A stretch of 32,000 nt of DNA. Source: an uncultured bacterium (GTDB taxonomy: Bacteria; Auribacterota; Erginobacteria; Erginobacterales; CAZKCI01). The notes under the pieces are model-generated. The model worked only from the letters and a program-made list of their open reading frames with translations. It made no database searches and was not told the origin of the DNA. Both the position numbers and the translations under genes were made by a program. This document shows positions 7,499 through 28,274 of the stretch, one piece after another (positions within the stretch are counted from its first letter, which is position 1; the number at the start of each line of letters is the position of its first letter). The stretch lies in contig CAZKCI010000027.1 in NCBI GenBank assembly GCA_964551475.1, positions 45,050 through 77,049 on the forward strand, written 5' to 3'.

Positions 7499-8335
7499 TC
7501 ATTCGGTGAATTTAAACAGCGTGATTTCGGGAGGGCAGAGGAAACGGACCGGATAAGGCTTGGACCCGATCCCCCGGTTGACGTAGAGCCAGCCGCCCGG
7601 GAGGGGGAAGAGGCCGCGGAGGAACGGAGAGCGGCCGTAGGATTCGAGGAAACGACCCCAGGCCGGCAGGCCGACCTGTCCGCCATGGGTGTCCCCGGAG
7701 AGCACCAGGTCGGCCCCCTGCTCGATCAGAGCCGGGGCGAGATCGGGGCTGGCGGAGAGGACGACGAGCGGCTCATTCCGAGGAATCCCCTCCAGGGCGG
7801 CGGAGATCCCTCCTTCCCCCCCGTAGTCGACGCCGGCCAGCCAGAAAAAATCCTCCCCGTTCCCGAAGCGCATCTTCAGGCTCTTTCCCCCGATCAGCGA
7901 GAGGCCGGAGCGCTTCCAGAGCAAGACAAAATCGTCTCCCTGGAGGTAAGCCCGGTCGGCGTTCCCCAGGATCCCGTAGCACCACATCCCGGGTCTCAGT
8001 CTCGAAACCAGCCGGGCGACCAGGGGGGCGGCGCGGGAAGATTCGACATAGTCCCCGGTGAAAAGGACGCAGTCCGGATGGAGACGGTTGATCCTTTCGA
8101 TCAGGCTTTTCTCCCGGAACCCCAGCTCCCCGGCGATGTGAAGGTCGGAGACCTGGACGATCCGTCGGCCCTGGAGAACGCGGGCGAGAGCGGGATGGCG
8201 GATGCGGACGGTCGTCACCGTCACCCAGTTCGGCTCGATCACCAGGGCGTCAAAGAGGATAAAGCCGGCCGTGGCGACGGCCGCCAGGCCGAGCAGCGCG
8301 GCCAGAAGAAGGAATTTCGTCGGGGCGGGCCTCAT
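7499..8335 (-). CDS. Membrane-anchored metallophosphoesterase (calcineurin-like, YkuE/YaeI type)
   Basis: 278 aa with an N-terminal TM (FLLLAALLGLAAVATAGFILF). Motifs: VQVSDLHI, FTGDYV, GILGNAD, LSGDTHGGQV. Confidence 0.8.
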   Translation of the reverse strand: MRPAPTKFLLLAALLGLAAVATAGFILFDALVIEPNWVTVTTVRIRHPALARVLQGRRIVQVSDLHIAGELGFREKSLIERINRLHPDCVLFTGDYVESSRAAPLVARLVSRLRPGMWCYGILGNADRAYLQGDDFVLLWKRSGLSLIGGKSLKMRFGNGEDFFWLAGVDYGGEGGISAALEGIPRNEPLVVLSASPDLAPALIEQGADLVLSGDTHGGQVGLPAWGRFLESYGRSPFLRGLFPLPGGWLYVNRGIGSKPYPVRFLCPPEITLFKFTE

Positions 8336-8458
8336 AGAATGCCGCGAGCAGGGTCGAAGCAGTCATCCCCGACGCGGGACGAGGGAACGAATATGAATAT
8401 TCCAGCAACAATCCGGCGCGGGCGGCCGGAGACACCGGCTGACACTTCTGATCAAACC

Positions 8459-8501
8459 GAATAGCCGTCCGCCCCGTTCCAGACGGGCCGGACGGCTATT
8501 C
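8459..8501 (-). terminator. GC-rich hairpin overlapping the stop codon of gene 8496..9953; candidate intrinsic terminator
   Basis: Perfect 13-bp inverted repeat GAATAGCCGTCCG (8459-8471) / CGGACGGCTATTC (8489-8501). An inner CCCGT/ACGGG pairing extends it. On the minus strand it is followed by GGTTTGAT, a weak U tract. Confidence 0.5.
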
Positions 8502-9953: not shown

Positions 9954-9981
9954 GATGTCAGCCCCCAGCATGAGGAATCGC

Positions 9982-10107
9982 GTCGATGGGCAAGGGCCAG
10001 GTTATTGGTCTGGTTCATGGGCAAAGTCATGGGGCGCGCAACGTAACAGCCCTGCCATCACTACCGACATTGCCCAGGCCCGAACCTTTGACCTTACCCT
10101 TACCCAT
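9982..10107. repeat. Palindromic intergenic element, family copy 1 (GTCGATGGGCAAGGG...)
   Basis: The left arm is GTCGATGGGCAAGGGCCAGGTTATTGGTCTGGTTCATGGGCAAAGTCATGGGG. The right arm is ...GCCCAGGCCCGAACCTTTGACCTTACCCTTACCCAT. The arms are imperfectly complementary. It spans from the stop at 10113 to 29 nt before the start at 9953. Confidence 0.75.
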
Positions 10108-10112
10108 TTTAC

Positions 10113-11150
10113 CTATTTTTTAGGGCCCGTCACCTGGATTTTGCTCACCCGGAACTCCTTGAGCTCCGGGTTCTCATACGGCTGAAAATAGTACTGGAAA
10201 CGGCCGGCGACCTCCAGGGGATGGGCGAGGATCGCTTCCAGGTCGTAGGTACCCGGGGGAAGGTCGGCCGGGAGGGCGACCTCCACCGGGCCGACCTTGA
10301 CCAGCTTGCCCTCCGGCCACTGGCTGGTCGGGAAGGGGGGCGAGACCTCGGCCAGCGTGCGGACATTGCCCTCCCGGCTCAAACGGAGAAGCAGGGTGTG
10401 ATCGGATCCCAGGGGACGGCGGGCGATGAAGTAGAACGATCCCGCAAATTTCTCGCCGGGCGAGGCGGAGGCGGGGAATTCCAGACCCATGAAACGGACC
10501 AGCGCCGTCGACGGCGCTTCCTGGGCGGAAGAGGGAAAACCGATATCGGTGTAATAAAGGACCGTCTCCGAGGAGGGGTCCCAGAGGAAGAAGTTCAGGT
10601 AGCCGATCTTGCTGGCGTCGATCCTCTCCGCGATCTGGCGGACGGGGATCTCGATCCGGCGGGACTGGCCGGGGGCGATCTTCTCCGCCCTCTGGAAGCT
10701 CTGGCCGCCGACGTCCTTGACCTTGACCTTGAGATCGACGTCGAAGGACTGGGGGTTGAAAACCGTGAAGAACAGGGAGGCGGCATCCCTCCAGTCCATC
10801 GTCGGCATGGTGTCGTCGGTCCAGAGGAATCCGGGCGACTGGGAAGGGTAGTAGGTCACCCGGGCCCACTTCTCCGGCGAGTCGAAGGGGCTGTTGACGA
10901 TCTCGAAGCGGGTGCCGGCGGTCACCCAGATCTCGGCGTCTTCGGGTCGGGAGAAATCGCAGCGGAAACCGGCCATGTTCTTCGCCTTGACTCCGGAGAC
11001 GATCGCCACCGGCTCGCGCTTGATCTTTTTCAGCCAGGAGGGCAGCTGGGCGATCCGGTCCTTGAGGAAGAGGCCCAGGACCAGGAGCACCAGGACGACC
11101 CAGGCCGCGGTCATGACCCGGTTGACCCATGTTTTTCTTATGGTTTTCAC
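10113..11150 (-). CDS. Membrane-anchored protein of unknown family (paralog of 8496..9953)
   Basis: 345 aa with a GTG start at 11150; an in-frame ATG alternative is at 11114. It has an N-terminal signal anchor (VMTAAWVVLVLLVLGLFL) and a central module similar to the neighbour. The C-terminal module reads SPPFPTSQWPEGKLVKVGPVEVALPADLPPGTYDLEA ... YENPELKEFRVSKIQV. Confidence 0.7.
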   Translation of the reverse strand: MKTIRKTWVNRVMTAAWVVLVLLVLGLFLKDRIAQLPSWLKKIKREPVAIVSGVKAKNMAGFRCDFSRPEDAEIWVTAGTRFEIVNSPFDSPEKWARVTYYPSQSPGFLWTDDTMPTMDWRDAASLFFTVFNPQSFDVDLKVKVKDVGGQSFQRAEKIAPGQSRRIEIPVRQIAERIDASKIGYLNFFLWDPSSETVLYYTDIGFPSSAQEAPSTALVRFMGLEFPASASPGEKFAGSFYFIARRPLGSDHTLLLRLSREGNVRTLAEVSPPFPTSQWPEGKLVKVGPVEVALPADLPPGTYDLEAILAHPLEVAGRFQYYFQPYENPELKEFRVSKIQVTGPKK

Positions 11151-11191: not shown

Positions 11192-11221
11192 CCTGGAAGC
11201 GCTGGCGGCCCGGCTAAAATC

Positions 11222-11249
11222 TTGACACGCTTACCTCCGATACTATACA
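11222..11249 (+). promoter_or_regulatory. Candidate sigma70-type promoter for the LysM / rotor-stator operon
   Basis: A perfect -35 TTGACA (11222-11227), a 16-nt spacer, then TATACA (11244-11249), about 48 nt upstream of the ATG at 11298. AAGGAG follows at 11283-11288. Confidence 0.45.
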
Positions 11250-11297
11250 TTGGCGTGAAGAATCCGGCGCCGGAGGCGCAGGAAGGAGACGTTCACG

Positions 11298-12215
11298 ATG
11301 CGCTTGGCTTTCCTGACCATACTCATCCTCGCGACACTTCCGGGCCAAACCCGGGCGCAACAGCCTGACTCCCCGGAGATGGCCGATCGCACCGACCTGG
11401 AGTCCGTCTGGAAGCGCTCCGGACGGACGACCCGGGTCATCGACTACCCCTTCAGCCCCCGCCCCTGGATCTCCAGCGGTCCCGACCTTCGGGACTGGGG
11501 AAACCAGGGCTACATCTTCATCAACCCGCGGATCGAAGACCGGGCGCGGACCCTTCCCGCCCCCACCCCGGAAGAGGGGCTGACCGCCGTGGAAACGGTC
11601 GAAGCGGAGGAGATCGCCCGCATGCTGGAGGAGGAAAAAGGACGGCGGGGGGCCCTGGAGGCGGAGATCAAAGCGGCGCAGGAGGAGCTCCAGGCGGCCC
11701 GGGAGAAAACCGAAGATCAGTCGGCCAAGATCTTGATTCTCGAAAACCAGATCGAGGAGATGGAAAAGCAGAAGGGCGCCGTGACGGCTGAATGGACAGG
11801 GGAGACCGGCGGAACCGGCGGACCGCCAGCCGCCGGACTTATCGTGGAGAAGACGGACACCTACCCGGTCGGTCAGGACCAGAGCCTGTGGTCGATTGCC
11901 GGGCGGGCCGAGGTCTACGGGAACCCCTTCAAATGGCTCCTTCTCTACCACGCCAACCGCGACCAGATCTTCGACCCCGACCTGATCTATCCCGGCATGA
12001 TCCTGATGGTTCCCCGCTATAAGGACCTGGAGGTTTTCCCGCCCCCGCCGGCGGAAGAGAAAGCGGCGGCGACGGAGCCGGCAGAGGAAGGAGCGGCGGC
12101 GGCGACGCCCGCTTTGACGGAGGAAACCCCTGTTGCCAAGCCCCCGGCGACTTCTCCGGCGAACGCCACCCAGGCTCCAGAAATGCCGGCGCCAAATCCG
12201 TCACCTCTGTCCTGA
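11298..12215 (+). CDS. Secreted coiled-coil protein with a LysM peptidoglycan-binding domain and a Pro/Ala-rich tail
   Basis: 305 aa. AAGGAG at 11283-11288 lies 9 nt before the ATG. Features: signal peptide MRLAFLTILILATLPGQTRAQQ, a coiled-coil segment (EAEIKAAQEELQAAREKTEDQSAKILILENQIEEMEKQK), and a LysM-like segment (YPVGQDQSLWSIAGRAEVYGNPFKWLLLYHANRDQIFDPDLIYPGMILMVP). Confidence 0.8.
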   Translation: MRLAFLTILILATLPGQTRAQQPDSPEMADRTDLESVWKRSGRTTRVIDYPFSPRPWISSGPDLRDWGNQGYIFINPRIEDRARTLPAPTPEEGLTAVETVEAEEIARMLEEEKGRRGALEAEIKAAQEELQAAREKTEDQSAKILILENQIEEMEKQKGAVTAEWTGETGGTGGPPAAGLIVEKTDTYPVGQDQSLWSIAGRAEVYGNPFKWLLLYHANRDQIFDPDLIYPGMILMVPRYKDLEVFPPPPAEEKAAATEPAEEGAAAATPALTEETPVAKPPATSPANATQAPEMPAPNPSPLS

Positions 12216-15423: not shown

Positions 15424-16245
15424 ATGCCCGTAGAGGACAAGCCGGTTCCGCGCGAACGCAAGCGGGTCAACCCCGACCAGGAGGGCGGCGGGCTCTCCTC
15501 CTCCTGGCCGCCCGTCTGGATGACCACCTACTCCGACATGATCACCAACCTGATGACCTTCTTCGTGCTCCTCTACGCCCTGACCATGGTGAGGATCCCC
15601 TTCGATCTGGTCAAGTTCGCTGAACCGGGAGACAAGCGCATTGTGCCCACCGGCAGCGAGGATTTTTTCTACACCGATGAAACCCAGTCAGCAGATGATA
15701 TCCAGGTTCTGGAGCAGATCGAACGGATGACGGCGGAAGACCGGCTGGCCTTGAGCGAGATGGCGACGTTCCAGGAGCAGGTGGAAGAACTGAAGCGGAC
15801 ACTGGAAAAGGGGAGGCTCGCCGACGGCGTAAAGGTGTTGATCACCGCCGAAGACGTGGTCATTGTCCCTTCCGCGCCCCTGATTTTCGCGGAAGGCTCG
15901 GACCGGATCAAAGAGTCCTTTTTCCCCATCCTCGACCGTCTGGCGGGGCTGATCAAGGATACCAAAGCCTCCGTCCGTATCGAGGGGCACACCGACGACA
16001 CGCCGATCGACCCCCTCCACCGGAACCGTTTCCCCAGCAACTACGAGCTCTCCGCCGCCCGGGCGATCGCCGTCGGCCGCTATTTTATCGAAAAGCACGC
16101 CGTGCCTCCCGAGCGGATCGCCGTGGCCGGCTACGGCCCCCTCCTCCCCCGCTTCCTGGCCAGCGAGCCCGAGAAGCGGGCGCTCAACCGCCGGGTCGAG
16201 TTCCATATTTTCATATCTTCGGCGACCCTCTCGAAAGAGGGCTGA
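15424..16245 (+). CDS. motB: Flagellar-type stator B subunit (MotB family, OmpA-like C-terminal domain), copy 1
   Basis: ORF 14770..16245(+) trimmed to the ATG at 15424, because the upstream part overlaps motA out of frame. In-frame GTG alternatives exist at 15385 and 15406. The plug/TM region WPPVWMTTYSDMITNLMTFFVLLYAL contains the conserved Asp. OmpA-like domain: VRIEGHTDDTPI, SNYELSAARAIAVGRYF, NRRVEFHIF. Confidence 0.85.
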   Translation: MPVEDKPVPRERKRVNPDQEGGGLSSSWPPVWMTTYSDMITNLMTFFVLLYALTMVRIPFDLVKFAEPGDKRIVPTGSEDFFYTDETQSADDIQVLEQIERMTAEDRLALSEMATFQEQVEELKRTLEKGRLADGVKVLITAEDVVIVPSAPLIFAEGSDRIKESFFPILDRLAGLIKDTKASVRIEGHTDDTPIDPLHRNRFPSNYELSAARAIAVGRYFIEKHAVPPERIAVAGYGPLLPRFLASEPEKRALNRRVEFHIFISSATLSKEG

Positions 16246-16250
16246 ACGCG

Positions 16251-17078
16251 ATGGGATCAAAAAGAAAAAGGATGGCCCAGGTGGAGGACAAGGGGCTGTC
16301 CGGCATGTGGCCCCCGGTCTGGATGACCACCTACTCCGACATGGTCACCAACGTGATGGTCTTTTTCGTCATCCTCTCCGCCATGCTCGTCCTCAAGATC
16401 GACGTGACCTTGATCGCCGGGCCAAAGATGCGCGGCGACAAAGAAAGGCCGACCAAGGTGAAAAAGCTAACCGCGGAACAGAAGACCATGGTCGACAATT
16501 TCCGCGCTCTGGAAGAACAGCAGATGCGGGAGGCTGCCTCGGTCACCAAGATGCAGCAGATCGGCGAGGAGATCGCCCAGTATATCCTGAAAGCCAATCT
16601 TCAGAAATTCGTCGTGGTGGAGACGACCAAGTGGAAGGTCAAGGTGGTCCCGCTCACCCCCTTCCTTTTCTCCCCCGGTCGGGCGGTCATCCGCCCGGAG
16701 TCCCGTGACTTCCTCGACCGCCTGGCCAAGTTCTTCAGCATCAACCCCGGCCAGATCCGGATCGCCGGCCATACCGATAACCTGCCCATCTACTCCGCCG
16801 AGTATCGCTCGAACTGGGAGCTCTCCGCCGCCCGGGCGGCCGCCATCATGAGGTATCTGGTGGAAGTCCACGGGCTCGATCCGAAGAGGTTCGTCGCGGT
16901 CGGCTGTGGGCCCTACCAACCGTTGGCGGACAACTCCACGCCGGAAGGGCGCAAGGAGAACCGCCGGGTGGAGATCGAGATCACTCAGGAACCCGAACCG
17001 GCGGGAAAGGCCGCAAAAGGCGGCATGGATGCGGCGGGGACCGCGGACGGCGGGGGGGCGGTCTCTCCGGCGAATTGA
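16251..17078 (+). CDS. motB: Flagellar-type stator B subunit (MotB family, OmpA-like C-terminal domain), copy 2
   Basis: 275 aa. WPPVWMTTYSDMVTNVMVFFVILSAM has the conserved Asp. OmpA-like domain: IRIAGHTDNLPI, SNWELSAARAAAIMRYL, NRRVEIEI. The start is 5 nt after copy 1's stop codon. Confidence 0.85.
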   Translation: MGSKRKRMAQVEDKGLSGMWPPVWMTTYSDMVTNVMVFFVILSAMLVLKIDVTLIAGPKMRGDKERPTKVKKLTAEQKTMVDNFRALEEQQMREAASVTKMQQIGEEIAQYILKANLQKFVVVETTKWKVKVVPLTPFLFSPGRAVIRPESRDFLDRLAKFFSINPGQIRIAGHTDNLPIYSAEYRSNWELSAARAAAIMRYLVEVHGLDPKRFVAVGCGPYQPLADNSTPEGRKENRRVEIEITQEPEPAGKAAKGGMDAAGTADGGGAVSPAN

Positions 17079-18514: not shown

Positions 18515-19660
18515 TTATAGGTTACGCATCTTTTTCCCCCTTCCTCCCAGCTGCCGGTACAGCTCCTCGTAGTCTCTGATCATCCTCCCCGCATCGAAGC
18601 GCTTGCGCACCGCCGCCGCGGCCCGTTCGCCCGTCTCCCGCCGCAGATCGGGATCGGCCAGGAGACGATCGATCGCCTCCGCCAGGGCGGGAGAATCCCG
18701 GGGCGGGACCAGTATCCCCGTCCGCCCGCTCTCGATGACTCCTGCCGCCCCCCCGACTGAAGTGACCACCGCCGGACGGGCGAGAGCCATCGCCTCCAGC
18801 AAGGCCAGGGAAAGCCCCTCGCGGATCGAGCTCAGGACAAAAACGTCGACGGCCGCGATGATCTCGATGGCGTCGGGGCGGGAACCGAGGAAATGGACGT
18901 TTCCGCCGATCCCCTTCTCCTCCGCCAGGCGTTCGAGATCGCCCCGGATCTCCCCCTCCCCCAGGACGAGAAAACGAACATCCCGGCGACGGGAAAGGAT
19001 CCTCGCGGCCGCCTCCAGAAAATAGACATGCCCCTTCTTCGGCGTGAGCGCGGCGACGATACCGACGAGAAGCGACTCCGGGGGGAGTTTGAGCCGGCGC
19101 ATCAGCTCCGGTCGGGAGACCGCAGCCGGCATCCTCTCAAAGTTGAGGCCGTTCTCGATCACCGTTATCCGGCCGGCGGCAATCCGACAGCACGAGACCA
19201 GGGAATCTCGGACGGGAGCGGAGACGGCGACCATCCGATCGGTGAGCAGGCTCAAAACGCGGTCGGCGGCCGCGCGCCGGGAACCCTTCCATTCGGATGT
19301 GTTGTGCTCGGTGTGGACGATCGCGGCGGGGACGCCCGAAAGGCGGACGGCGAGCGTCCCCCAGAGCCGGCTGGAAAAGAGGTGGGTGTGGACAATCGAA
19401 GGGCGGTACTCGCGGACGAGGCGGCGAAGACGGAGAAAGGCGGGAAGATCCCAGCGCGACCGGCGGCCGAGCAGGCGGACGGGGATGCCGGCGGCGGAGA
19501 TCATCTCGGCCGCTCCCCCGCCCCGGGTCAGGGCGGCCACGGCGAAGGAGAAGGAGACGGGGTCGCAGCGGGAAACGATGTCGAAGAGGAGTATCTCCGC
19601 CCCCTCCCGGGGGAGCGAGTCGATGATCTGGAGAATTTTGATTTTGGCTGGAGACGGCAT
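18515..19660 (-). CDS. Family 4 glycosyltransferase (GT-B fold)
   Basis: 381 aa. The N-terminus is KILQIIDSLPREGAE. The C-terminal domain has VFVLSSIREGLSLALLEAMALARPAVVTSVGG (the EX7E-type region). Confidence 0.85.
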   Translation of the reverse strand: MPSPAKIKILQIIDSLPREGAEILLFDIVSRCDPVSFSFAVAALTRGGGAAEMISAAGIPVRLLGRRSRWDLPAFLRLRRLVREYRPSIVHTHLFSSRLWGTLAVRLSGVPAAIVHTEHNTSEWKGSRRAAADRVLSLLTDRMVAVSAPVRDSLVSCCRIAAGRITVIENGLNFERMPAAVSRPELMRRLKLPPESLLVGIVAALTPKKGHVYFLEAAARILSRRRDVRFLVLGEGEIRGDLERLAEEKGIGGNVHFLGSRPDAIEIIAAVDVFVLSSIREGLSLALLEAMALARPAVVTSVGGAAGVIESGRTGILVPPRDSPALAEAIDRLLADPDLRRETGERAAAAVRKRFDAGRMIRDYEELYRQLGGRGKKMRNL

Positions 19661-19696
19661 TCTATTGATCCGAGCTTAATGTTCCTGACGGATCAT

Positions 19697-19838
19697 GTCG
19701 ATAGGTAAGGGCAAGGTTATCGGTCTGGTCTATGGGAAAGGTCTATGGTCTGGCTCGTCTGGCGGGTTGACAGGCCATACCTAACCCTAGCCCACTGACC
19801 AAACCGTTGACCTAACCCTTTCCCGCCCACCAACCCGT
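19697..19838. repeat. Palindromic intergenic element, family copy 2 (GTCGATAGGTAAGGG...)
   Basis: The left arm is GTCGATAGGTAAGGGCAAGGTTATCGGTCTGGTCTATGGGAAAGGTCTATGGTCTGG. The right arm is CCATACCTAACCCTAGCCCACTGACCAAACCGTTGACCTAACCCTTTCCCGCCCACCAACCC. By hand alignment the arms are about 70 percent complementary. Confidence 0.75.
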
Positions 19839-19853
19839 AGCCTGATCTCTCTG

Positions 19854-20672
19854 CTAGAACCAGGGGGTTCTTTGCCACAGCCAGTGCCAACAATCAAAAG
19901 CCCCCATGAGCTTCAACCGGAAGGCGGCGGGATCGTCGTCGGCCGAGATCTCCGTCCGGGGGAGGGCGAAAGGATCGCCAGACGGACGGCAGGCGCCCGG
20001 GGCCACCGTGACCGCTCCCCGGTATCCGGCGCTCTCGGCCAGACGGCGATGGAGCGGGTGGTTCCGCCCCCGGGGATAGGCGAACCACGCGGGGCGTGTC
20101 CCCAGCTTCTCCCCGATGATCCGCGCGCTCTCCTCGATCTCCTCCTTTGCCTCCTTCTCCGTAAGAGCGGTCAGCTCCCGGTGAGTGAGACCGTGGGAGC
20201 CGACGGTGACGCCGGCGCGCATAAGTTCCCCGAGCGACGCCCAGTCCAGGGGAACGTGCTCACCCGGCCGGCCGCGGTAACGCTCCAGTGAGATCTTCCC
20301 TTCGATCAGGCCCGGGACGACGAAGACGGCCGCGGGGAATCCCCGCTCGCGCAGGATCGGCCAGGCCGCGGAGTAAAAATCCCGGAAGCCGTCGTCGAAG
20401 GTCAGGGCGACGCGGGGACGGCAGCCGGCTCCCTCCGCCGCCAGCGCCGAGGAGAGCGGAACCACCTGCCAGCCGCCGGAACGGAGAAAGTCCATCTGAC
20501 GGGCGAAAGACTCCGGGTGAACGGAGAGGCGGTCCCCGGGGATGTCGGCGACGCGGTGATACATCAGCATCCGCGTTCCCCTCCCCCGGAAGGCCCGCTC
20601 GGCGGCCGCCAGCGGCCAAGCCAGGCGAGGAAGCAGGAAGCGGAGAGATTTTCGTATCCAGAACTGGTTCAT
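19854..20672 (-). CDS. Polysaccharide deacetylase (NodB homology domain), second copy in the locus
   Basis: ORF 19854..20780(-) trimmed to the ATG at 20672 (MNQFWIRKSLRFLLPRL). Motifs: MLMYHRV, ALTFDDGFRDF, VGSHGLTHREL, FAYPRGR. Confidence 0.8.
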   Translation of the reverse strand: MNQFWIRKSLRFLLPRLAWPLAAAERAFRGRGTRMLMYHRVADIPGDRLSVHPESFARQMDFLRSGGWQVVPLSSALAAEGAGCRPRVALTFDDGFRDFYSAAWPILRERGFPAAVFVVPGLIEGKISLERYRGRPGEHVPLDWASLGELMRAGVTVGSHGLTHRELTALTEKEAKEEIEESARIIGEKLGTRPAWFAYPRGRNHPLHRRLAESAGYRGAVTVAPGACRPSGDPFALPRTEISADDDPAAFRLKLMGAFDCWHWLWQRTPWF

Positions 20673-20728
20673 CGAAGACGAGCGGTTTCGCTGGCCCGAA
20701 TATATAAACGAGAATCCCGGATTTGAGA

Positions 20729-21841
20729 TTATCTGCGCTTCTCTACCACTTCCCGGTACATCTCCCCCAGCCTCCGGCACATCCGGGAGGCGCTGAACTC
20801 CCGGCAGACCCGTTCCCGTCCCGCCCGACCCAGGGCGACGGACCGTTCCGGCTCGGCGATCAGGGTGCGGATCCTTTCCGCCAGCATGGTCGGATCGGCG
20901 GGAGGGACCAGGAAGCCGTCGACGCCGTCCCGGATGACCTCGGCATTCGCCCCCACCTCCGTCGCGATCACCGGGAGACCCAGAGCCATCGCCTCGAGGA
21001 GGGCGTTGGGAAAACCCTCGGAGAGGGAGGGCAGGACAAAGATATCGAGTGAACGGAGAAAATCGGGAACGTCGACGACCTCACCCGGAAAATCCACGCG
21101 CCCGTCCAGGCCGAGAGAAGAGACGAGATCGCGCAGTCTCCCTTCGTAAGCCGGATCGATCGACCGGCCGCCGATCCGGACTGCGCAGTCCACTCCCCTT
21201 TGTGCCGTATCCGCCAGCGCCCGGAGGAGGTGCTCGTATCCCTTGATCGGGCGCAGGTTGCCCAGAGCCCCGAGAACGATCGGCCGGCCGGGAGTGATCC
21301 TCCGGGCGGAGGGCGCCCCCACCGAATCCGGATCGATCCCGTTATGGATCAGGACGACGCGGTTAACGGGGGCCTTTTCGCGGCTCAGAACGTAATCGCG
21401 GACGCCCAGCGAATTGACCGTGATCCGGGAGGAGAGAAGGTTGCCGATCCGGTTCGCCCAGAGGTGCCTGGGCTGCTGCCAGAAGCCCATGTCCCGGCGG
21501 CTGGTGATCACCGGTATCCCGGCGAGGAGGCCGGCAAGCGGGGCGACCACGTTGGCCGCGAAGAGATAGGCGTGGATGAGATCGGCCCGATCCCGCCGGG
21601 CGAGGCGGGCGAGGGCGAAGGCGGCGGCGAAATAGCGGGGACCGACCACGTTCCGGAAACCCAGCGTCTCGACGGCGAGGCCGGCCGACTTCAGCTCCTC
21701 GCCCAGGGCGCCGGTCTCGAGGAGGCAACAGAGGGAAGGGGCGAACTCGGGCCGGGAAAGCCCCCGGACAGCCTGGCAGAGATGGCGCTGGGCCCCCGCC
21801 CGGACCATCTTGTCAATGACATAGAGGACGTGGATGGACAT
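20729..21841 (-). CDS. Family 4 glycosyltransferase (GT-B fold)
   Basis: ORF 20729..21901(-) trimmed to the ATG at 21841 (MSIHVLYVIDKMVRAGAQRHL). The C-terminal domain has IFVLPSLSEGFPNALLEAMALGLPVIATEVGANAEV. Confidence 0.85.
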   Translation of the reverse strand: MSIHVLYVIDKMVRAGAQRHLCQAVRGLSRPEFAPSLCCLLETGALGEELKSAGLAVETLGFRNVVGPRYFAAAFALARLARRDRADLIHAYLFAANVVAPLAGLLAGIPVITSRRDMGFWQQPRHLWANRIGNLLSSRITVNSLGVRDYVLSREKAPVNRVVLIHNGIDPDSVGAPSARRITPGRPIVLGALGNLRPIKGYEHLLRALADTAQRGVDCAVRIGGRSIDPAYEGRLRDLVSSLGLDGRVDFPGEVVDVPDFLRSLDIFVLPSLSEGFPNALLEAMALGLPVIATEVGANAEVIRDGVDGFLVPPADPTMLAERIRTLIAEPERSVALGRAGRERVCREFSASRMCRRLGEMYREVVEKRR

Positions 21842-21852
21842 AGGAAAAGCAG

Positions 21853-21975
21853 TCGATGGGTCAAGGTTAGGAAATGGGTCTGGTAGATGGGCAAGGTCCA
21901 AGGTGCGTCGGGCCGGCCGGCTCGAACCTAACCCTTACCTCTAGACCAAACCCACTTCTTAACCCTCACCCATCA
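21853..21975. repeat. Palindromic intergenic element, family copy 3 (GTCGATGGGTCAAGG...); the best-formed hairpin
   Basis: The left arm is GTCGATGGGTCAAGGTTAGGAAATGGGTCTGGTAGATGGGCAAGGTCCAAGGTGCG. The reverse complement of the right arm is GGTTGATGGGTGAGGGTTAAGAAGTGGGTTTGGTCTAGAGGTAAGGGTTAGGTTCG. They match closely along about 55 nt. The central loop contains the palindrome GGCCGGCC. The right end overlaps the stop codon at 21973 and the left end is 11 nt from the ATG at 21841. Confidence 0.85.
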
Positions 21976-23034
21976 ACCAGCTTTTTCCCTGACTACATCC
22001 TTCTCTTTAACATATCCGGCCGCGCAGGCGGAGCAAACGGCCTTCTTCCCCGAGAAGGCCAGCTTGACGCCGCAGCGGCAGATCCAGCCCTGAATCCGGG
22101 CCGGGTTGCCGTAGACCAGGGCGAAGTCGGGGAGATCGCGGGTGACCACCGATCCGGCGCCCACGAAGGCGTAGCGGCCGATGGTGTGGCCGCAGACCAC
22201 GGTGGCGTTGGCGCCGATCGAGGCTCCGCGCTTGACCAGCGTCCGGCGATACTCGTTCTTGCGGGAGACCTCGCAGCGGGGGTTGATCACGTTGGTGAAA
22301 ACCATGGAGGGACCGCAGAAGACGAAGTCCTCCAGCTCCACGTCGTCGTAGACCGAGACGTTGTTCTGGATCTTCACGCCGTTCCCGATCTTCACCCGGC
22401 TTCCCACGTTCACGTTCTGTCCCAGGCTGCAGTTCTCGCCGATCCGCGCCCCGCCCAGGACATGGCTGAAATGCCAGATCTTCGTCCCCTTGCCGATCAC
22501 CGCGCCGGCGTCGACGTAGCTCGATTCATGGACAAAATAATCAGGACCGGCAGGAGAAGAAGAAACAGGACCGGCGGGAGAGGCAGGATGGGCAGGAGCG
22601 GCAGGAGAAACACGAGAAGGTCTTTTCACTATAATTTCAGGTCCTTTCTTGGGCTCGGGTTGAATCAAGGTCTGGCGATAGCGCTTGAGGAGATAAATGG
22701 TTCTTCCACAGAGAGAATCGAGATCCTGGTAAATCTCCGAGGAGAAAAGCTTGTCCTCAATACAATCTTCCAGATCACCGAGAAGTTCTTCCGCTGATCC
22801 CTCGGAAATCTCCAGGAATCTCGCCAATTCCAGCCGGGATTGTCTCCGATAGCCTTCTTGGATATTTTGTTTGATTGAACGGGCGGCGCTGTTCATCTGT
22901 GAAATGCGCCTCATCTCGGAGTGCGGAAATGTTTTTGTAATCCCGAATATCTTTCTCCGTAGTTCCGACGCCGCCTGCCAGAAATGCCATGTACGGTAGC
23001 TCTGGGTCTTGTAATCTTTCTTGGGGCTCTCCAT
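21973..23034 (-). CDS. In-frame fusion: N-terminal four-helix-bundle module (23S rRNA intervening-sequence protein family) plus a C-terminal hexapeptide-repeat sugar N-acetyltransferase (WbpD/WlbB-like)
   Basis: 353 aa. Residues 1-128 ([76 protein letters not shown]) match the four-helix-bundle family pattern. A Pro/Ala/Ser linker covers aa 129-164. From aa 165, [28 protein letters not shown]...VFTNVINPR...[15 protein letters not shown] is typical of left-handed beta-helix acetyltransferases. There is no stop codon and no in-frame ATG between the two parts. Confidence 0.75.
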
Positions 23035-23050
23035 GATCTTCCCCGTCTTT

Positions 23051-23140
23051 CTTTTGTTTCCTGCGCTTTCCTGCGCTTTCCTGCGCTTCCCTGCGCTTTC
23101 CTGCGCTTTCCTGCGCTTTCCTGCCTATCCTGCCTTTCCT
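23051..23140. repeat. 10-bp tandem repeat CTGCGCTTTC (6 good copies plus degenerate flanking copies)
   Basis: Copies lie at 23061-23120, five exact and one variant (CTGCGCTTCC). Degenerate units are CTTTTGTTTC (23051-60), CTGCCTATC and CTGCCTTTC (23121-38). It lies between the oxidoreductase stop (23125) and the fusion gene start (23034), and the degenerate copies encode the last residues (LTGKAG) of the oxidoreductase. Confidence 0.9.
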
Positions 23141-26947: not shown

Positions 26948-26980
26948 GTCGACGATCCCGACGGCCGGGGCCATAATATA

Positions 26981-27056
26981 ATCTTAGGAAGCCAGGAAAC
27001 CAGGAGGATCCAGGCCGGTCTCATCATCATTCCTGGGTTCCTGGTTTCCTAAGATG
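26981..27056. repeat. Imperfect inverted repeat built from AGGAARCC octamers; one arm lies inside the 3' end of a CDS
   Basis: ATCTTAGGAAGCCAGGAAACCAGGAG (26981-27006) is compared with the reverse complement of TTCCTGGGTTCCTGGTTTCCTAAGATG (27030-27056), which is CATCTTAGGAAACCAGGAACCCAGGAA. Most positions match. The right arm encodes ...HLRKPGTQE-stop of the ArnT-like gene. Confidence 0.75.
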
Positions 27057-28274
27057 ATCCTCTTGGCCGGGCCGGACGAGACCGGACAGGGCAACCGCGG
27101 CGAAGGCGTAGACGAACGGCATCACCGGCAACCGGTAGCGCCCCTCGGGAAGAAACACCGAGTGGATGAGCGTGAAGGAGAGAATGCCGAGAAGAAAGAG
27201 CGAGGCTTTGCCCTCCCAGCCTCGGGACAGAATCGCCCCGGTGACGCCGAGGAGAAGCGCGACCCAAAGCGAGGCGGCGAGAGGAAGCGAGGGGTTGTGC
27301 GCGTCCAGATGATACAGCCAGGCCAGGCGGCGGAAGCTGAGACGGAGAAACCGGGCGGGATCGCTCCGGATGAAATCCATCGCCTTCTTCCCGTATCCCC
27401 GGCTGTAGGCGATCTCGTCCTCCGTCTCCCCGAGGTGGAACGCGCCGAGGGCGATCAGATCGTTGACCCGCACCGTTCCGCCCGAGGAGTGCGGATTGTT
27501 CGCCAGATAGAAGTTGTTTCCCCCCTGCGTGTTGAGCGGGACAAATTCCCCCAGGACCAGGAAATTCCGCGCCGTCCAGGGGAGAAGAACCAGGAGGAGG
27601 GGAAAAAGAAAGCGCAGGGCGCGGCGGACATACCCTCTCCCCCGCAAGGGCGGCCAGAGGAGACAGGCGGCGGCCAGGATGACGAGTGTCGGGCGACAGA
27701 GGATCCCCATTCCCAGGAGCGCCCCGGCGGCGGGGAGCCGGCGGCCGGTGAAACCGGCTTCCGCGGCCCCCAGAAGGAGAGCCGCCGCCGCGAGCAGGAG
27801 AAAGATAAAGAGCGTCTCCGTCATCAACCGCCCGCTGTAGTAGATGAGCAGCGGGTCGCCGGCCGCGAGGAAGGCCGCCACGCTTCCCTCCCGCGTCCCC
27901 GCGCCGGACCGTCCGGCGAAGGCCGACCGGGCGGCCAGGCCGAGCAGGCCGCAGGAGAACGCCCCCAGAAAGACCTGCGCGACCCGCGCCACGCGAAAAG
28001 AGAAGATCCCTCCCCGGACAAAAACCGCGAGAAATATCGGATAGAGGGGGGGAAAGGAGGCCCGGCGCCAGGGGCTGTAGATCAGCCCTTTCCCCCCGGC
28101 CAGGTTCCGGGCGACGGCGAGGTACATCTTCTCGTCGGGATCGTAGGAGCGCTCCGAGAGACCGAGGACGTAGCCCAGGCGCAGGGCGAAGCCGAGCGCG
28201 CAGGCGGAGAGAAGCAATATCGCGAACGAAGGAGTGCGGTGGCGCGGCCCGTTTGGTCTCACGGCATTCGTCAC
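27027..28274 (-). CDS. ArnT/PMT-like membrane glycosyltransferase (GT39/GT83-type, GT-C fold)
   Basis: 415 aa polytopic protein. The first-loop motif YDPDEKMYLAVARNLAGGKGL (acidic DE pair) is typical of the GT-C family. Multiple TM helices. The last 9 codons lie in one arm of an inverted repeat. Confidence 0.75.
   Translation of the reverse strand: MTNAVRPNGPRHRTPSFAILLLSACALGFALRLGYVLGLSERSYDPDEKMYLAVARNLAGGKGLIYSPWRRASFPPLYPIFLAVFVRGGIFSFRVARVAQVFLGAFSCGLLGLAARSAFAGRSGAGTREGSVAAFLAAGDPLLIYYSGRLMTETLFIFLLLAAAALLLGAAEAGFTGRRLPAAGALLGMGILCRPTLVILAAACLLWPPLRGRGYVRRALRFLFPLLLVLLPWTARNFLVLGEFVPLNTQGGNNFYLANNPHSSGGTVRVNDLIALGAFHLGETEDEIAYSRGYGKKAMDFIRSDPARFLRLSFRRLAWLYHLDAHNPSLPLAASLWVALLLGVTGAILSRGWEGKASLFLLGILSFTLIHSVFLPEGRYRLPVMPFVYAFAAVALSGLVRPGQEDHLRKPGTQE

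What the first reader, a model, noticed from the sequence alone, without database searches (positions are those of the whole stretch)
21853..21975. Family of three ~125-140 bp palindromic intercistronic elements (copy 3, the best hairpin)
Three spacers on the minus-strand gene train carry related elements: 9982-10107, 19697-19838 and 21853-21975. Each opens with GTCGAT(G/A)GG(C/T)(A/C)A(G/A)GG, continues GGTTA..GGTCTGGT..ATGGG.AAGGTC, and is followed by an imperfect reverse-complement arm. In copy 3 the two arms of about 55 nt align almost base for base around a GGCCGGCC-containing loop. Each element starts at or within a few nt of the upstream gene's stop codon and ends 11-37 nt before the next start codon. 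No convincing Shine-Dalgarno sequence lies in between. They look like REP/BIME-like or MITE-like structured RNA/DNA elements. They could act as mRNA stabilisers, processing sites, attenuators or translational couplers within the EPS operon.
Basis: seen in the sequence. Interest (0 to 1): 0.7.

Follow-up and report, generated by a model that had tools for sequence, protein, structure and literature searches.

The report
Palindromic interspersed repeat family between genes
The three spacers hold copies of a real, previously undescribed family of about 130-base imperfect-palindrome repeats that are scattered between genes in a few uncultured PVC-group bacteria; they behave like ERIC- or MITE-type elements, a known kind, and have no special link to the polysaccharide genes.

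Summary
Window 9977-10118, 19692-19838 and 21845-21985 are related imperfect palindromes, and copy 3 folds at -81.5 kcal/mol (z = -9.7).

There are more than three. I found 5 copies in about 50 kb of the source contig and 23 distinct copies in at least five related uncultured genomes. They lie between many kinds of genes (accC/asp23, rmlA/epimerase, radical-SAM pairs, lptB, rpsN-like).

Orthologous sites differ between relatives:
- Element present against a spacer of 30 nt or less (accC|asp23).
- Different subfamilies at the same site (the c1 and c2 sites).
- A remnant with about 75 nt deleted from its centre (c3 site).

Both orientations occur. I found no target-site duplication, no Rfam match, no terminator or promoter signal, and only weak covariation. 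The missing Shine-Dalgarno sequence is genome-wide: 13-15 of 49 genes have one.

Two results hint at function at the RNA level:
- Folds and G.U mismatches favour the mRNA strand (p about 0.01-0.02).
- Copy 2 plus its leader is 92% identical to an orthologue whose flanking third codon positions are 61% identical.

Verdict: a new ERIC/MITE-like repeat family, co-transcribed as a long interrupted hairpin. Any effect on mRNA is unproven. Interest is modest.

The parts
21845..21985 (-). Copy 3: a full element of subfamily B (5' AAGAAGTGGGTTTGG / 3' CCAGACCCATTTCC). The whole length folds as one interrupted hairpin in the mRNA-sense strand.
   Evidence: Fold -81.5 kcal/mol, z = -9.7. nhmmer gives 109 bits on the minus strand against 77 on the plus strand. 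The covariance model gives 103.8 bits.
21919..21985 (-). Copy 3, 5' (G/T-rich) arm on the mRNA strand. It includes the last codons and the TGA stop (21973-21975) of the upstream gene (PF05635 domain fused to a hexapeptide acetyltransferase).
   Evidence: Dot-bracket structure; ORF 21973..23034; gene call.
21915..21918 (-). Copy 3, apical loop (GGCC) inside the palindromic centre GCCGGCCGGC.
   Evidence: The same GGCCGGCC-type centre occurs in L014, L023, L031, L045a and L041b.
21845..21914 (-). Copy 3, 3' (C/A-rich) arm, ending ...CCCATCGAC at 21853. After 11 nt (TGCTTTTCCTA) comes the ATG of the next glycosyltransferase, at 21841.
19692..19838 (-). Copy 2: an element of subfamily A with a long locus-specific apex, lying between the polysaccharide deacetylase (stop 19854-19856) and a GT4 glycosyltransferase (ATG 19660).
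   Evidence: Orthologues are in L038 (91% identical over the element) and L047 (subfamily B).
19661..19696 (-). The 36-nt leader between copy 2 and the next start codon. It is 35/36 identical in L038 and contains the mini-ORF ATGATCCGTCAGGAACATTAA, which overlaps the end of the element.
9977..10118 (-). Copy 1: the most degenerate element, subfamily A. It lies between two hypothetical secreted-protein genes (stop 10113-10115; conserved start ATG 9953).
   Evidence: At the orthologous site L058 carries a subfamily-B element and L055 has an empty 53-nt spacer.

Best explanation
These are copies of a lineage-specific family of non-coding interspersed repeats, each an imperfect palindrome of about 120-145 bp. 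The consensus is GGTCGATGGGTAAGGGTTAGGTTAATGGTTTGGTCAATGGGTTAGGGTTAGGTG - GC-rich palindromic centre - CACCATTAACCTTACCCATTGACCAGACCAATAACCTTACCCTTACCCATCGACC. They are of the same kind as ERIC, Correia or MITE elements.

Shown:
- The family is multicopy and spread over several related genomes.
- It sits in short spacers, mostly between co-directional genes, in either orientation.
- Copies are inserted, replaced by other subfamily members, and eroded by central deletions at orthologous sites.

Inferred:
- Because the spacers lie inside gene trains, the elements are transcribed as part of polycistronic mRNA. There they fold into a long hairpin made of short G-C clamps separated by small internal loops.
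- The most likely consequence is a modest cis effect on the mRNA: a barrier to 3' exonucleases, or a site for a double-strand-specific or single-strand-specific RNase. This would uncouple the stability of neighbouring cistrons, as described for REP, Correia and ERIC elements.

Unknown: how the family spreads. Candidates are an unidentified trans-acting enzyme or recombination and gene conversion between copies.
For: Copy number and spread:
- 5 copies in 50.7 kb of the source contig.
- 23 distinct copies in all: the 21 aligned in A4 (window, L045, L004, L014, L016, L023, L024, L031-L035, L038, L039, L041, L047), the half copy at L039 7474-7618 and the copy in L058.
- The covariance model finds all full copies. 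It finds nothing in 35 control loci: 15 (L051, L053, seven chance-hit metagenome loci and six loci that already hold copies but gained no extra match) and 20 viral.

Gain and loss at orthologous sites:
- accC|asp23: a 209-nt spacer with the element in this genome, a 30-nt spacer in genome B (accC 95% identical), and overlapping genes in genome C (73% identical).
- Nucleotidyltransferase|epimerase: the element is present only in this genome.
- c1 site: subfamily A here, subfamily B in L058, an empty 53-nt spacer in L055.
- c2 site: subfamily A here and in L038, subfamily B in genome B.
- c3 site: genome B keeps only the outer parts, with about 75 nt deleted from the centre.

Orientation: among 19 copies with co-directional flanking genes, pattern orientation is gene-sense in 14, antisense in 3 (L016, L033, L035) and ambiguous in 2 (L045b, L041a).

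No link to gene function: the neighbouring genes are of many kinds.

Likely action at the RNA level:
- The fold is more stable on the gene-sense strand in 14 of 19 copies, by 5.5 kcal/mol on average (Wilcoxon p = 0.011).
- G.U mismatches outnumber A.C mismatches on the sense strand, 94 against 64 (p = 0.02).

Known precedents for the effects of such elements on mRNA: PMC10969869 and PMC3184786.
Against: - No target-site duplication at any of 169 boundary offsets.
- The outermost 4-5 nt are less conserved than the interior, unlike a classical transposase-bound terminal inverted repeat.
- No transposase or RAYT (REP-associated tyrosine transposase) gene among the Pfam-annotated genes of about 50 kb. 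No autonomous partner could be searched for.
- Copy 2 and its leader are 159/172 identical to the L038 orthologue. The flanking genes are 77% identical, and 61% at third codon positions (p = 7e-8 and 7e-21). A purely selfish, neutral insert would not be expected to stay that similar.
- The effect on mRNA is inference only. No transcript data were available.
Confidence: 0.65

Rival explanations
1. A selected cis-acting RNA structure. On this reading the hairpin is kept because it does a job in the polycistronic mRNA: an RNase III or RNase E processing site, protection of the upstream cistron, or bringing the stop codon and the next start codon together for termination-reinitiation in a genome poor in Shine-Dalgarno sequences. 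Mobility would be secondary.
For: - Copy 2 plus its leader is 92% identical between genomes whose flanking third codon positions are 61% identical.
- The sense strand folds better in 14 of 19 copies (p = 0.011), and G.U mismatches exceed A.C mismatches, 94 against 64.
- The base of the hairpin places the upstream stop codon and the downstream ATG within about 0-30 nt of each other in most copies.
- Elements are kept at the c2 site in three genomes.
Against: - Covariation barely exceeds the shuffles: 77.1% against 75.7% of cells paired, score 0.146 against 0.128, and 12-13 of 500 shuffles reach the observed value. That range also arises from relatedness alone.
- Many positions between the GG/CC clamps are mismatched in most copies.
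- Sister genomes manage with a 30-nt or overlapping junction at the same gene pairs.
- The c3 orthologue has lost its centre.
- The G.U excess could also come from transcription-associated C-to-T bias on the non-template strand.
- The conservation of copy 2 could reflect a short recombination tract between lineages.
Confidence: 0.2
2. A DNA-level element. On this reading the repeated GGGTTAGG/CCTTACCC blocks, invariant GG/CC about every 6 nt, form an array of binding sites for a nucleoid, gyrase or IHF-type protein. Alternatively they are a cruciform or G-quadruplex-prone site that acts on chromosome structure or replication, as proposed for BIMEs (bacterial interspersed mosaic elements).
For: - Specific nucleotides are conserved rather than pairing: 33 invariant columns, mostly GG/CC, in 21 copies.
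- The palindrome runs through its centre (GGCCGGCC), so a cruciform is possible.
- The G-rich arm carries several GGG tracts.
- The element is indifferent to orientation.
Against: - No protein partner is known.
- The strand asymmetry of the mismatches follows the direction of transcription, which a purely double-stranded DNA site does not predict.
- Part of the conservation in the 3' arm was imposed by the search pattern used to find copies.
Confidence: 0.1
3. Integron attC-type recombination sites (like the 123-bp Vibrio cholerae repeats) that separate gene cassettes.
For: The size (120-140 bp), the imperfect palindrome, and the position between co-directional genes just after a stop codon resemble chromosomal attC sites. 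This comparison rests on my own knowledge of attC sites.
Against: - The flanking genes are housekeeping genes in conserved synteny across three genomes, with or without the element.
- Both orientations occur.
- The termini are GGTCGATGGG / CCCATCGACC, not RYYYAAC / GTTRRRY.
- No integrase is among the annotated genes of about 50 kb.
Confidence: 0.02
4. Intrinsic terminators or attenuators that punctuate the gene train.
For: Very stable hairpins right after stop codons.
Against: - No U-tract follows the stems. The terminator scan finds none in the elements, and its two hits elsewhere equal the shuffle expectation.
- In several copies the next start codon is only 5-12 nt away.
Confidence: 0.03

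Closest known systems
ERIC (enterobacterial repetitive intergenic consensus; about 127-bp imperfect palindromes)
   Same: - Similar size, and an imperfect palindrome along the whole length.
- Located in transcribed spacers inside or next to operons, in either orientation.
- Variable presence at orthologous sites, and variants with internal deletions.
- Folds as a long RNA hairpin, with reported effects on mRNA decay (PMC3184786, PMC10969869).
   Different: - No sequence similarity: blastn of the consensus against 5,426 E. coli genomes gives no match.
- No TA-flanked termini or duplications were found.
- The host is an uncultured PVC-group lineage.
- The arms are built of GG/CC clamps in a degenerate repeat of about 6-7 nt resembling TTAGGG.
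Correia/NEMIS elements of Neisseria and classical bacterial MITEs (for example Chunjie of Geobacter uraniireducens and Nezha of cyanobacteria)
   Same: - Short, non-coding and multicopy, with inverted ends.
- Inserted between genes of an operon without breaking it.
- Stable RNA hairpins. Correia transcripts are cut by RNase III.
- Empty and filled orthologous sites occur.
   Different: - Classical MITEs have well-conserved terminal inverted repeats and direct target duplications (9 bp for Chunjie, TA for Correia). Here the extreme ends are the least conserved part and I found no duplication.
- No promoter-like sequence lies in the elements.
REP / BIME / REPIN elements mobilised by RAYT transposases
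   Same: - Extragenic palindromes, abundant, and without target duplications.
- Known to stabilise upstream mRNA and to bind DNA proteins.
- REPINs are inverted doublets that form one long hairpin.
   Different: - A REP unit is 20-40 nt and GC-rich. Here a single palindrome of 120-145 bp has arms less GC-rich than the genome.
- No GTAG-type conserved head.
- No RAYT gene was seen in the sequence available.
STRR (short tandemly repeated repetitive) heptamer arrays of filamentous cyanobacteria
   Same: - Intergenic hairpins made of 7-nt repeats between co-transcribed genes.
- The function is still unknown. Suggestions include transcript stability or translational coupling (PMC2670836).
- The same contigs here carry several such heptamer hairpins.
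   Different: - The family studied here is a fixed-length element with a defined consensus, not a variable tandem array.
- The phylum is different.

Membership tests
MITE (miniature inverted-repeat transposable element) | Short (under about 500 bp), non-coding, many dispersed copies | tested here: met
   The elements are 115-150 bp. I found 23 distinct copies, 5 of them in 50.7 kb of one contig.
MITE (miniature inverted-repeat transposable element) | Terminal inverted repeats | tested here: met
   GGTCGATGGGTAAGGG... / ...CCCTTACCCATCGACC. The whole element is in palindromic register (alignment columns i + j = 154). However, the outermost 4-5 nt vary.
MITE (miniature inverted-repeat transposable element) | Direct target-site duplications flanking each copy | tested here: not met
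   No 2-4 nt direct repeat rises clearly above chance at any of 169 boundary offsets in 21 copies. The best was 5 of 21 for k = 2, with both boundaries placed inside the element.
MITE (miniature inverted-repeat transposable element) | Filled and empty orthologous sites (evidence of insertion) | tested here: met
   accC|asp23, nucleotidyltransferase|epimerase, and the c1 site compared with L055.
MITE (miniature inverted-repeat transposable element) | An autonomous insertion sequence with the same termini in the genome | not testable with these tools
No transposase Pfam family appears among the called genes.
ERIC | Sequence homology to the ERIC consensus | tested here: not met
   The element consensus has no blastn match in 20,395 E. 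coli records.
ERIC | Imperfect palindrome of about 127 bp in transcribed intergenic regions, in either orientation | tested here: met
   Transcription is inferred from the position inside co-directional gene trains, not measured.
REP/REPIN-RAYT | GC-rich palindromic unit of 20-40 nt, single or as an inverted doublet, with a conserved GTAG-type head | tested here: not met
   This is a single long palindrome. The arms have 47-60% G+C against about 64% for the window. No conserved GTAG is present.
REP/REPIN-RAYT | A RAYT (Y1 transposase, PF01797) gene flanked by the repeats | not testable with these tools
   It is not among the Pfam hits of the genes in L001, L044 and L045. The rest of the genome was not available.
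Integron attC site | R''/R' core sites (RYYYAAC...GTTRRRY), an intI integrase, and variable cassettes | tested here: not met
   The termini differ. The flanking genes are syntenic housekeeping genes in three genomes. No integrase is annotated.
Intrinsic terminator | GC-rich stem followed by a U-tract | tested here: not met
   The terminator scan finds none within the elements.
Any Rfam family | Covariance-model match at the gathering score | tested here: not met
   No hit in the window at the gathering threshold. In 19600-22100 the only hit with E below 1 is RNase_MRP at 13.9 bits, against a gathering score of 50.
Structured functional RNA (generic) | Compensatory base changes beyond what relatedness explains | tested here: inconclusive
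   20 of 54 pairs show changes on both sides. The totals are only marginally above the shuffles: 54 against 45.4 cells (37 of 500 shuffles as high) and score 0.146 against 0.128 (13 of 500).

The most novel reading that the evidence does not exclude
In this lineage, which is poor in Shine-Dalgarno sequences, the many families of intergenic hairpins built from short-period repeats may form a general system of intercistronic punctuation. This family and the AAATCCG, AGATCTC, GGTTCAnC and GGAAAyAT types would all belong to it. A dedicated RNA-binding protein or nuclease would read them to process operon transcripts, or to hand ribosomes from a stop codon across the base of the hairpin to the next start codon. 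The repeat families would then be domesticated elements rather than merely tolerated ones.
Probability: 0.08. Interest if true: 0.7.

Novelty: new member of a known kind. Interest (0 to 1): 0.3.

Why it matters
The family adds an ERIC/MITE-like element to a bacterial lineage (uncultured, PVC-group-like) in which no such elements have been described.

It explains three practical things:
- Why spacers in these genomes are long.
- Why assemblies break at them (contigs L058-L060 end inside a copy).
- Why some gene calls run into them (ORF 20729..21901; the stop codon of the gene upstream of copy 3 lies inside the element).

It also offers a natural test set for how a long interrupted hairpin inside a polycistronic mRNA affects neighbouring genes: the same gene pair with the element, without it, and with a remnant.

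It does not reveal a new regulatory principle.

Tried and rejected
- Rfam at the gathering threshold and at a permissive threshold: nothing.
- blastn of copy 3 against plasmids and phages, and of the consensus against E. coli genomes: no match, so no homology to ERIC, REP or BIME.
- Full-text search for the element's sequence strings and for the sample accessions: nothing relevant.
- Viral-contig scan with a looser pattern: 20 hits, all chance, with no covariance-model match.
- The metagenome scan returned 37 loci. Of these, 24 were chance hits, mostly in one conserved AT-rich gene, and were discarded.
- Target-site duplication search: negative.
- Promoter and terminator scans: negative.
- Orientation bias relative to genes: among the independent copies found by the pattern itself the split is 10 sense to 4 antisense, which is not significant, so I dropped it as evidence.
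- Preference for co-directional spacers: about 85% of the spacers in this contig are co-directional anyway, so 19 of 20 is not informative.
- The apparently greater conservation of the 3' arm was set aside, because the search pattern lies in that arm.
- The mini-ORF after copy 2 (MIRQEH) is kept in L038 but absent in genome B, so I treat it as a coincidence.
- Integron attC and terminator readings were rejected (see rival explanations).

Full report
**Observation**

The three stretches are as described. On the minus strand, which is the sense strand of the flanking genes, each reads as three parts: a G/T-rich arm, a GC-rich centre, and a C/A-rich arm ending CCCATCGAC. The C/A-rich arm is the imperfect reverse complement of the G/T-rich arm.

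An HMM built from the three copies finds exactly these three places in the 32-kb window, at E = 1e-40 to 1e-45, and nothing else below E = 2.

Folded as RNA on the sense strand:

| Copy | Energy (kcal/mol) | z against 200 shuffles |
|---|---|---|
| 3 | -81.5 | -9.7 |
| 2 | -70.2 | -5.2 |
| 1 | -59.0 | -3.2 |

The antisense strands fold 5-16 kcal/mol less well. My bounds are 9977-10118, 19692-19838 and 21845-21985.

**Source of the window**

The window is part of a JGI metagenome contig (3300037485, Ga0393267_0000053, 82 kb). Look-ups at the window edges let me read 50.7 kb of that contig.

The nearest named homologues of its proteins come from the PVC group:
- Candidatus Omnitrophota, with accC about 63% identical.
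- Candidatus Erginobacter (Auribacterota), with a glycosyltransferase 53% identical.

The organism is therefore an uncultured, PVC-group-like bacterium. I could not place it more precisely.

**More copies**

nhmmer finds two more copies just left of the window in the same contig. One lies between a nucleotidyltransferase and an epimerase gene, the other between accC and an asp23-like gene (L045 12604-12735 and 18509-18648). That gives 5 copies in about 50 kb.

A pattern from the conserved arm gave these results in the public collections:
- One hit in 185,579 representative genomes: an uncultured MAG, with the element between two radical-SAM genes.
- 37 loci in the metagenome collection. Thirteen of them hold real family members (L022 repeats the L004 copy) and 24 are chance matches, mostly in one AT-rich gene.

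Scanning the retrieved loci found extra copies near the first ones: three in 10 kb of L041 and two in L039. Homologue look-ups added L047 and L058. In all I found 23 distinct copies.

A covariance model built from 21 copies recovers all full copies. It finds nothing in 35 control loci, including 20 viral contigs that match a looser pattern by chance.

**Anatomy**

The whole element is one palindrome in strict register (alignment columns i + j = 154). The centre is often GGCCGGCC.

Conservation is concentrated in GG/GGG blocks in one arm and CC/CCC blocks in the other, spaced about 5-7 nt apart: 33 columns are invariant in 21 copies. The positions between these clamps vary and are often mismatched.

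There are two subfamilies:
- Subfamily A: 5' GGTTAAyGGTTTGG paired with 3' CCAGACCrATAACC.
- Subfamily B: 5' GGAAGTGGGTyTGG paired with 3' CCAAACCCACTTCC.
- Hybrids also occur.

The outermost 4-5 nt are less conserved than the interior. No direct target duplication appears at any of 169 boundary offsets.

**Gene context**

I assigned flanking genes by third-position G+C. The results were:
- 19 copies lie between co-directional genes.
- One lies between convergent genes.
- About 85% of the spacers in this contig are co-directional anyway, so this is not a demonstrated preference.

The neighbouring genes are unrelated in function: EPS glycosyltransferases, accC, sugar-nucleotide enzymes, radical-SAM enzymes, and lptB-like, rpsN-like and mcsA-like genes.

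The element usually fills the spacer. The upstream stop codon lies from about 40 nt inside the element to 10 nt before it, apart from two farther cases (copy 2 at about 15-19 nt and L045b at 66 nt). In copy 3, L034 and others the upstream reading frame ends within the element. The next start codon follows 8-36 nt after it.

Only 13-15 of 49 called genes have such a motif.

Relative to the genes, the pattern orientation is sense in about 14 copies, antisense in 3 and ambiguous in 2. Among the independent copies found by the pattern itself the split is 10 to 4, which is not significant.

**Comparisons with relatives**

Three syntenic genomes could be compared:
- Genome A: this window's genome.
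- Genome B: ENA ERZ15185029 NODE_16 (accC 95% identical, glycosyltransferase 78% identical).
- Genome C: GCA_003551625.1 (accC 73% identical).
- In addition, the short contigs L038, L055 and L058.

| Site | Genome A | Relatives |
|---|---|---|
| accC/asp23 | 209-nt spacer with the element | B: 30-nt spacer; C: genes overlap |
| Nucleotidyltransferase/epimerase | Element present | B: a terminator-like hairpin instead; C: an unrelated 59-nt spacer |
| c1 | Subfamily A | L058 (87% protein identity): a quite different subfamily-B copy; L055 (79%): empty 53-nt spacer |
| c2 | Subfamily A | L038: the same element; B: a subfamily-B element |
| c3 | Full element | B: only the outer parts of both arms, about 75 nt missing from the centre |

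No copy was found in another 35 kb of genomes B and C.

Gain, replacement, central deletion and lineage-specific abundance are the behaviour of an interspersed repeat, not of a fixed regulatory site.

**Evidence for a role**

Three observations keep a functional reading alive.

1. Sense-strand stability. The gene-sense strand folds more stably than the antisense strand in 14 of 19 copies, by 5.5 kcal/mol on average (Wilcoxon p = 0.011). This holds whichever way round the element is inserted.
2. Mismatch asymmetry. When each arm is aligned to the reverse complement of its partner, G.U mismatches on the sense strand outnumber A.C mismatches, 94 against 64 (p = 0.02). In pattern orientation there is no bias, 73 against 70. 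This fits selection for pairing in the mRNA. It could also arise from C-to-T bias on the non-template strand.
3. Conservation of copy 2. Copy 2 and the 36-nt leader after it are 159/172 identical between genome A and L038. The flanking genes are 77% identical overall: 82-85% at first codon positions, 85-89% at second and 61% at third. This points either to purifying selection at that locus or to a short recombination tract between the lineages.

Against a selected structure, covariation across the family is weak: 77.1% of cells are paired against 75.7% in shuffles, and the score is 0.146 against 0.128. The 12-13 of 500 shuffles that reach the observed values are within the range the tool attributes to relatedness alone.

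**What it is not**

- No Rfam family matches.
- There are no promoter-like or terminator-like signals and no U-tract.
- There is no similarity to anything in the plasmid, phage or E. coli collections, so no homology to ERIC, REP or BIME.
- These are not integron attC sites. The flanking genes are syntenic housekeeping genes, the termini differ from the attC core sites, and no integrase is nearby.

**Conclusion**

The finding is a real, previously undescribed family of ERIC/MITE-like palindromic interspersed repeats in a small group of uncultured PVC-group bacteria.

Shown:
- The family is multicopy and occurs in several genomes.
- Copies turn over at orthologous sites.
- The sense strand has strong hairpin potential.

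Inferred:
- The elements are co-transcribed with the flanking genes.
- They have a modest cis effect on mRNA stability or processing, by analogy with REP, Correia and ERIC elements (PMC10969869, PMC3184786).

Unknown:
- The mobilising mechanism. The family fails the target-duplication criterion of classical MITEs and the unit-size criterion of REPs. I therefore describe it as working like these families rather than file it under either.

The link to the EPS operon and the significance given to the missing Shine-Dalgarno sequence were not.

**Wider context**

The same contigs carry several other families of intergenic hairpins whose arms are short-period repeats. They also carry tandem arrays, some at orthologous spacers in genomes A and B. 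This resembles the STRR heptamer hairpins of filamentous cyanobacteria, whose function is also unknown (PMC2670836). That genome-wide habit is the more unusual aspect, and it is the basis of the low-probability novel reading given separately.

Noticed in passing
window 2644-2737, 7359-7492, 26962-27074, 206-330: There are four other intergenic hairpins, unrelated in sequence to the family studied. Their arms are short-period repeats: GGAAAyAT-type (33-nt arms, 97% complementary), AAATCCG heptamers (58-nt arms), AGGAAnCC-type (which overlaps a stop codon and the next start codon), and an AAAAAGC-type.
   Followed up: partly
L045 14919-15017, L051 7762-7836, L024 3636-3726; L045 11641-11898 and 19237-19325; L047 about 11200-11370: There are more families of repeat-built hairpins and arrays (GGTTCAnC; AGATCTC/AAATCTC heptamers). 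The GGTTCA-type hairpin sits in the same Trm112|dehydroquinase spacer in genomes A and B. The two versions keep the motif and the hairpin but cannot be aligned base by base.
   Followed up: partly
window 23047-23136 (minus strand = sense): A tandem array (GCGCAGGAAA) x about 9 lies between the GFO/IDH oxidoreductase gene and the next gene. Genome B has a different purine-rich array, GGCAGGAG-like, at the same place (L047 about 6750-6830). Both consist of repeated Shine-Dalgarno-like or GGA motifs.
   Followed up: no
window 21973-23034 (minus strand): The gene upstream of copy 3 is a fusion of a PF05635 four-helix-bundle domain (23S rRNA intervening-sequence protein) to a hexapeptide acetyltransferase. 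In genome B the acetyltransferase is 232 aa, and the four-helix-bundle part survives only as a decayed remnant in the spacer (L047 about 6830-6990).
   Followed up: partly
L044, L001, L045 (49 called genes of the source contig): Only 13-15 of 49 genes have a Shine-Dalgarno-like motif 4-18 nt upstream of the start codon. The organism seems to initiate translation mostly without one.
   Followed up: partly
L045 20521-20575, L024 1010-1103, L034 2772-2920, L004 4927-4971, L051 14992-15021, L039 next to 7474-7618: A second dispersed repeat is present in several of these genomes: a small GC-rich REP-like hairpin, TGTGGGAGGGGC..GCCCCGATCC. In L039 it abuts a half copy of the family studied.
   Followed up: no
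window 19679-19699 (minus strand): The mini-ORF ATG ATC CGT CAG GAA CAT TAA starts in the last bases of copy 2. L038 keeps it with one synonymous change (ATC to ATA). Genome B lacks it.
   Followed up: partly
window about 8455-8497 (minus strand); L055 3660-3705; L058 1600-1640: A hairpin lies right after the stop codon of the 491-aa gene (TAGCCGTCCGG...CCGGACGGCTATTCGG). It is kept in three genomes with different stem sequences. It looks like a genuine terminator-type structure with compensatory changes.
   Followed up: no
L058, L059, L060 (position 1): Three independent short-read contigs begin inside the element at the c1-orthologous site. The repeat breaks assemblies.
   Followed up: no
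window 15480-15597 and 16283-16400: A 118-nt direct repeat (76% identical) reflects two adjacent MotB-like paralogues.
   Followed up: no
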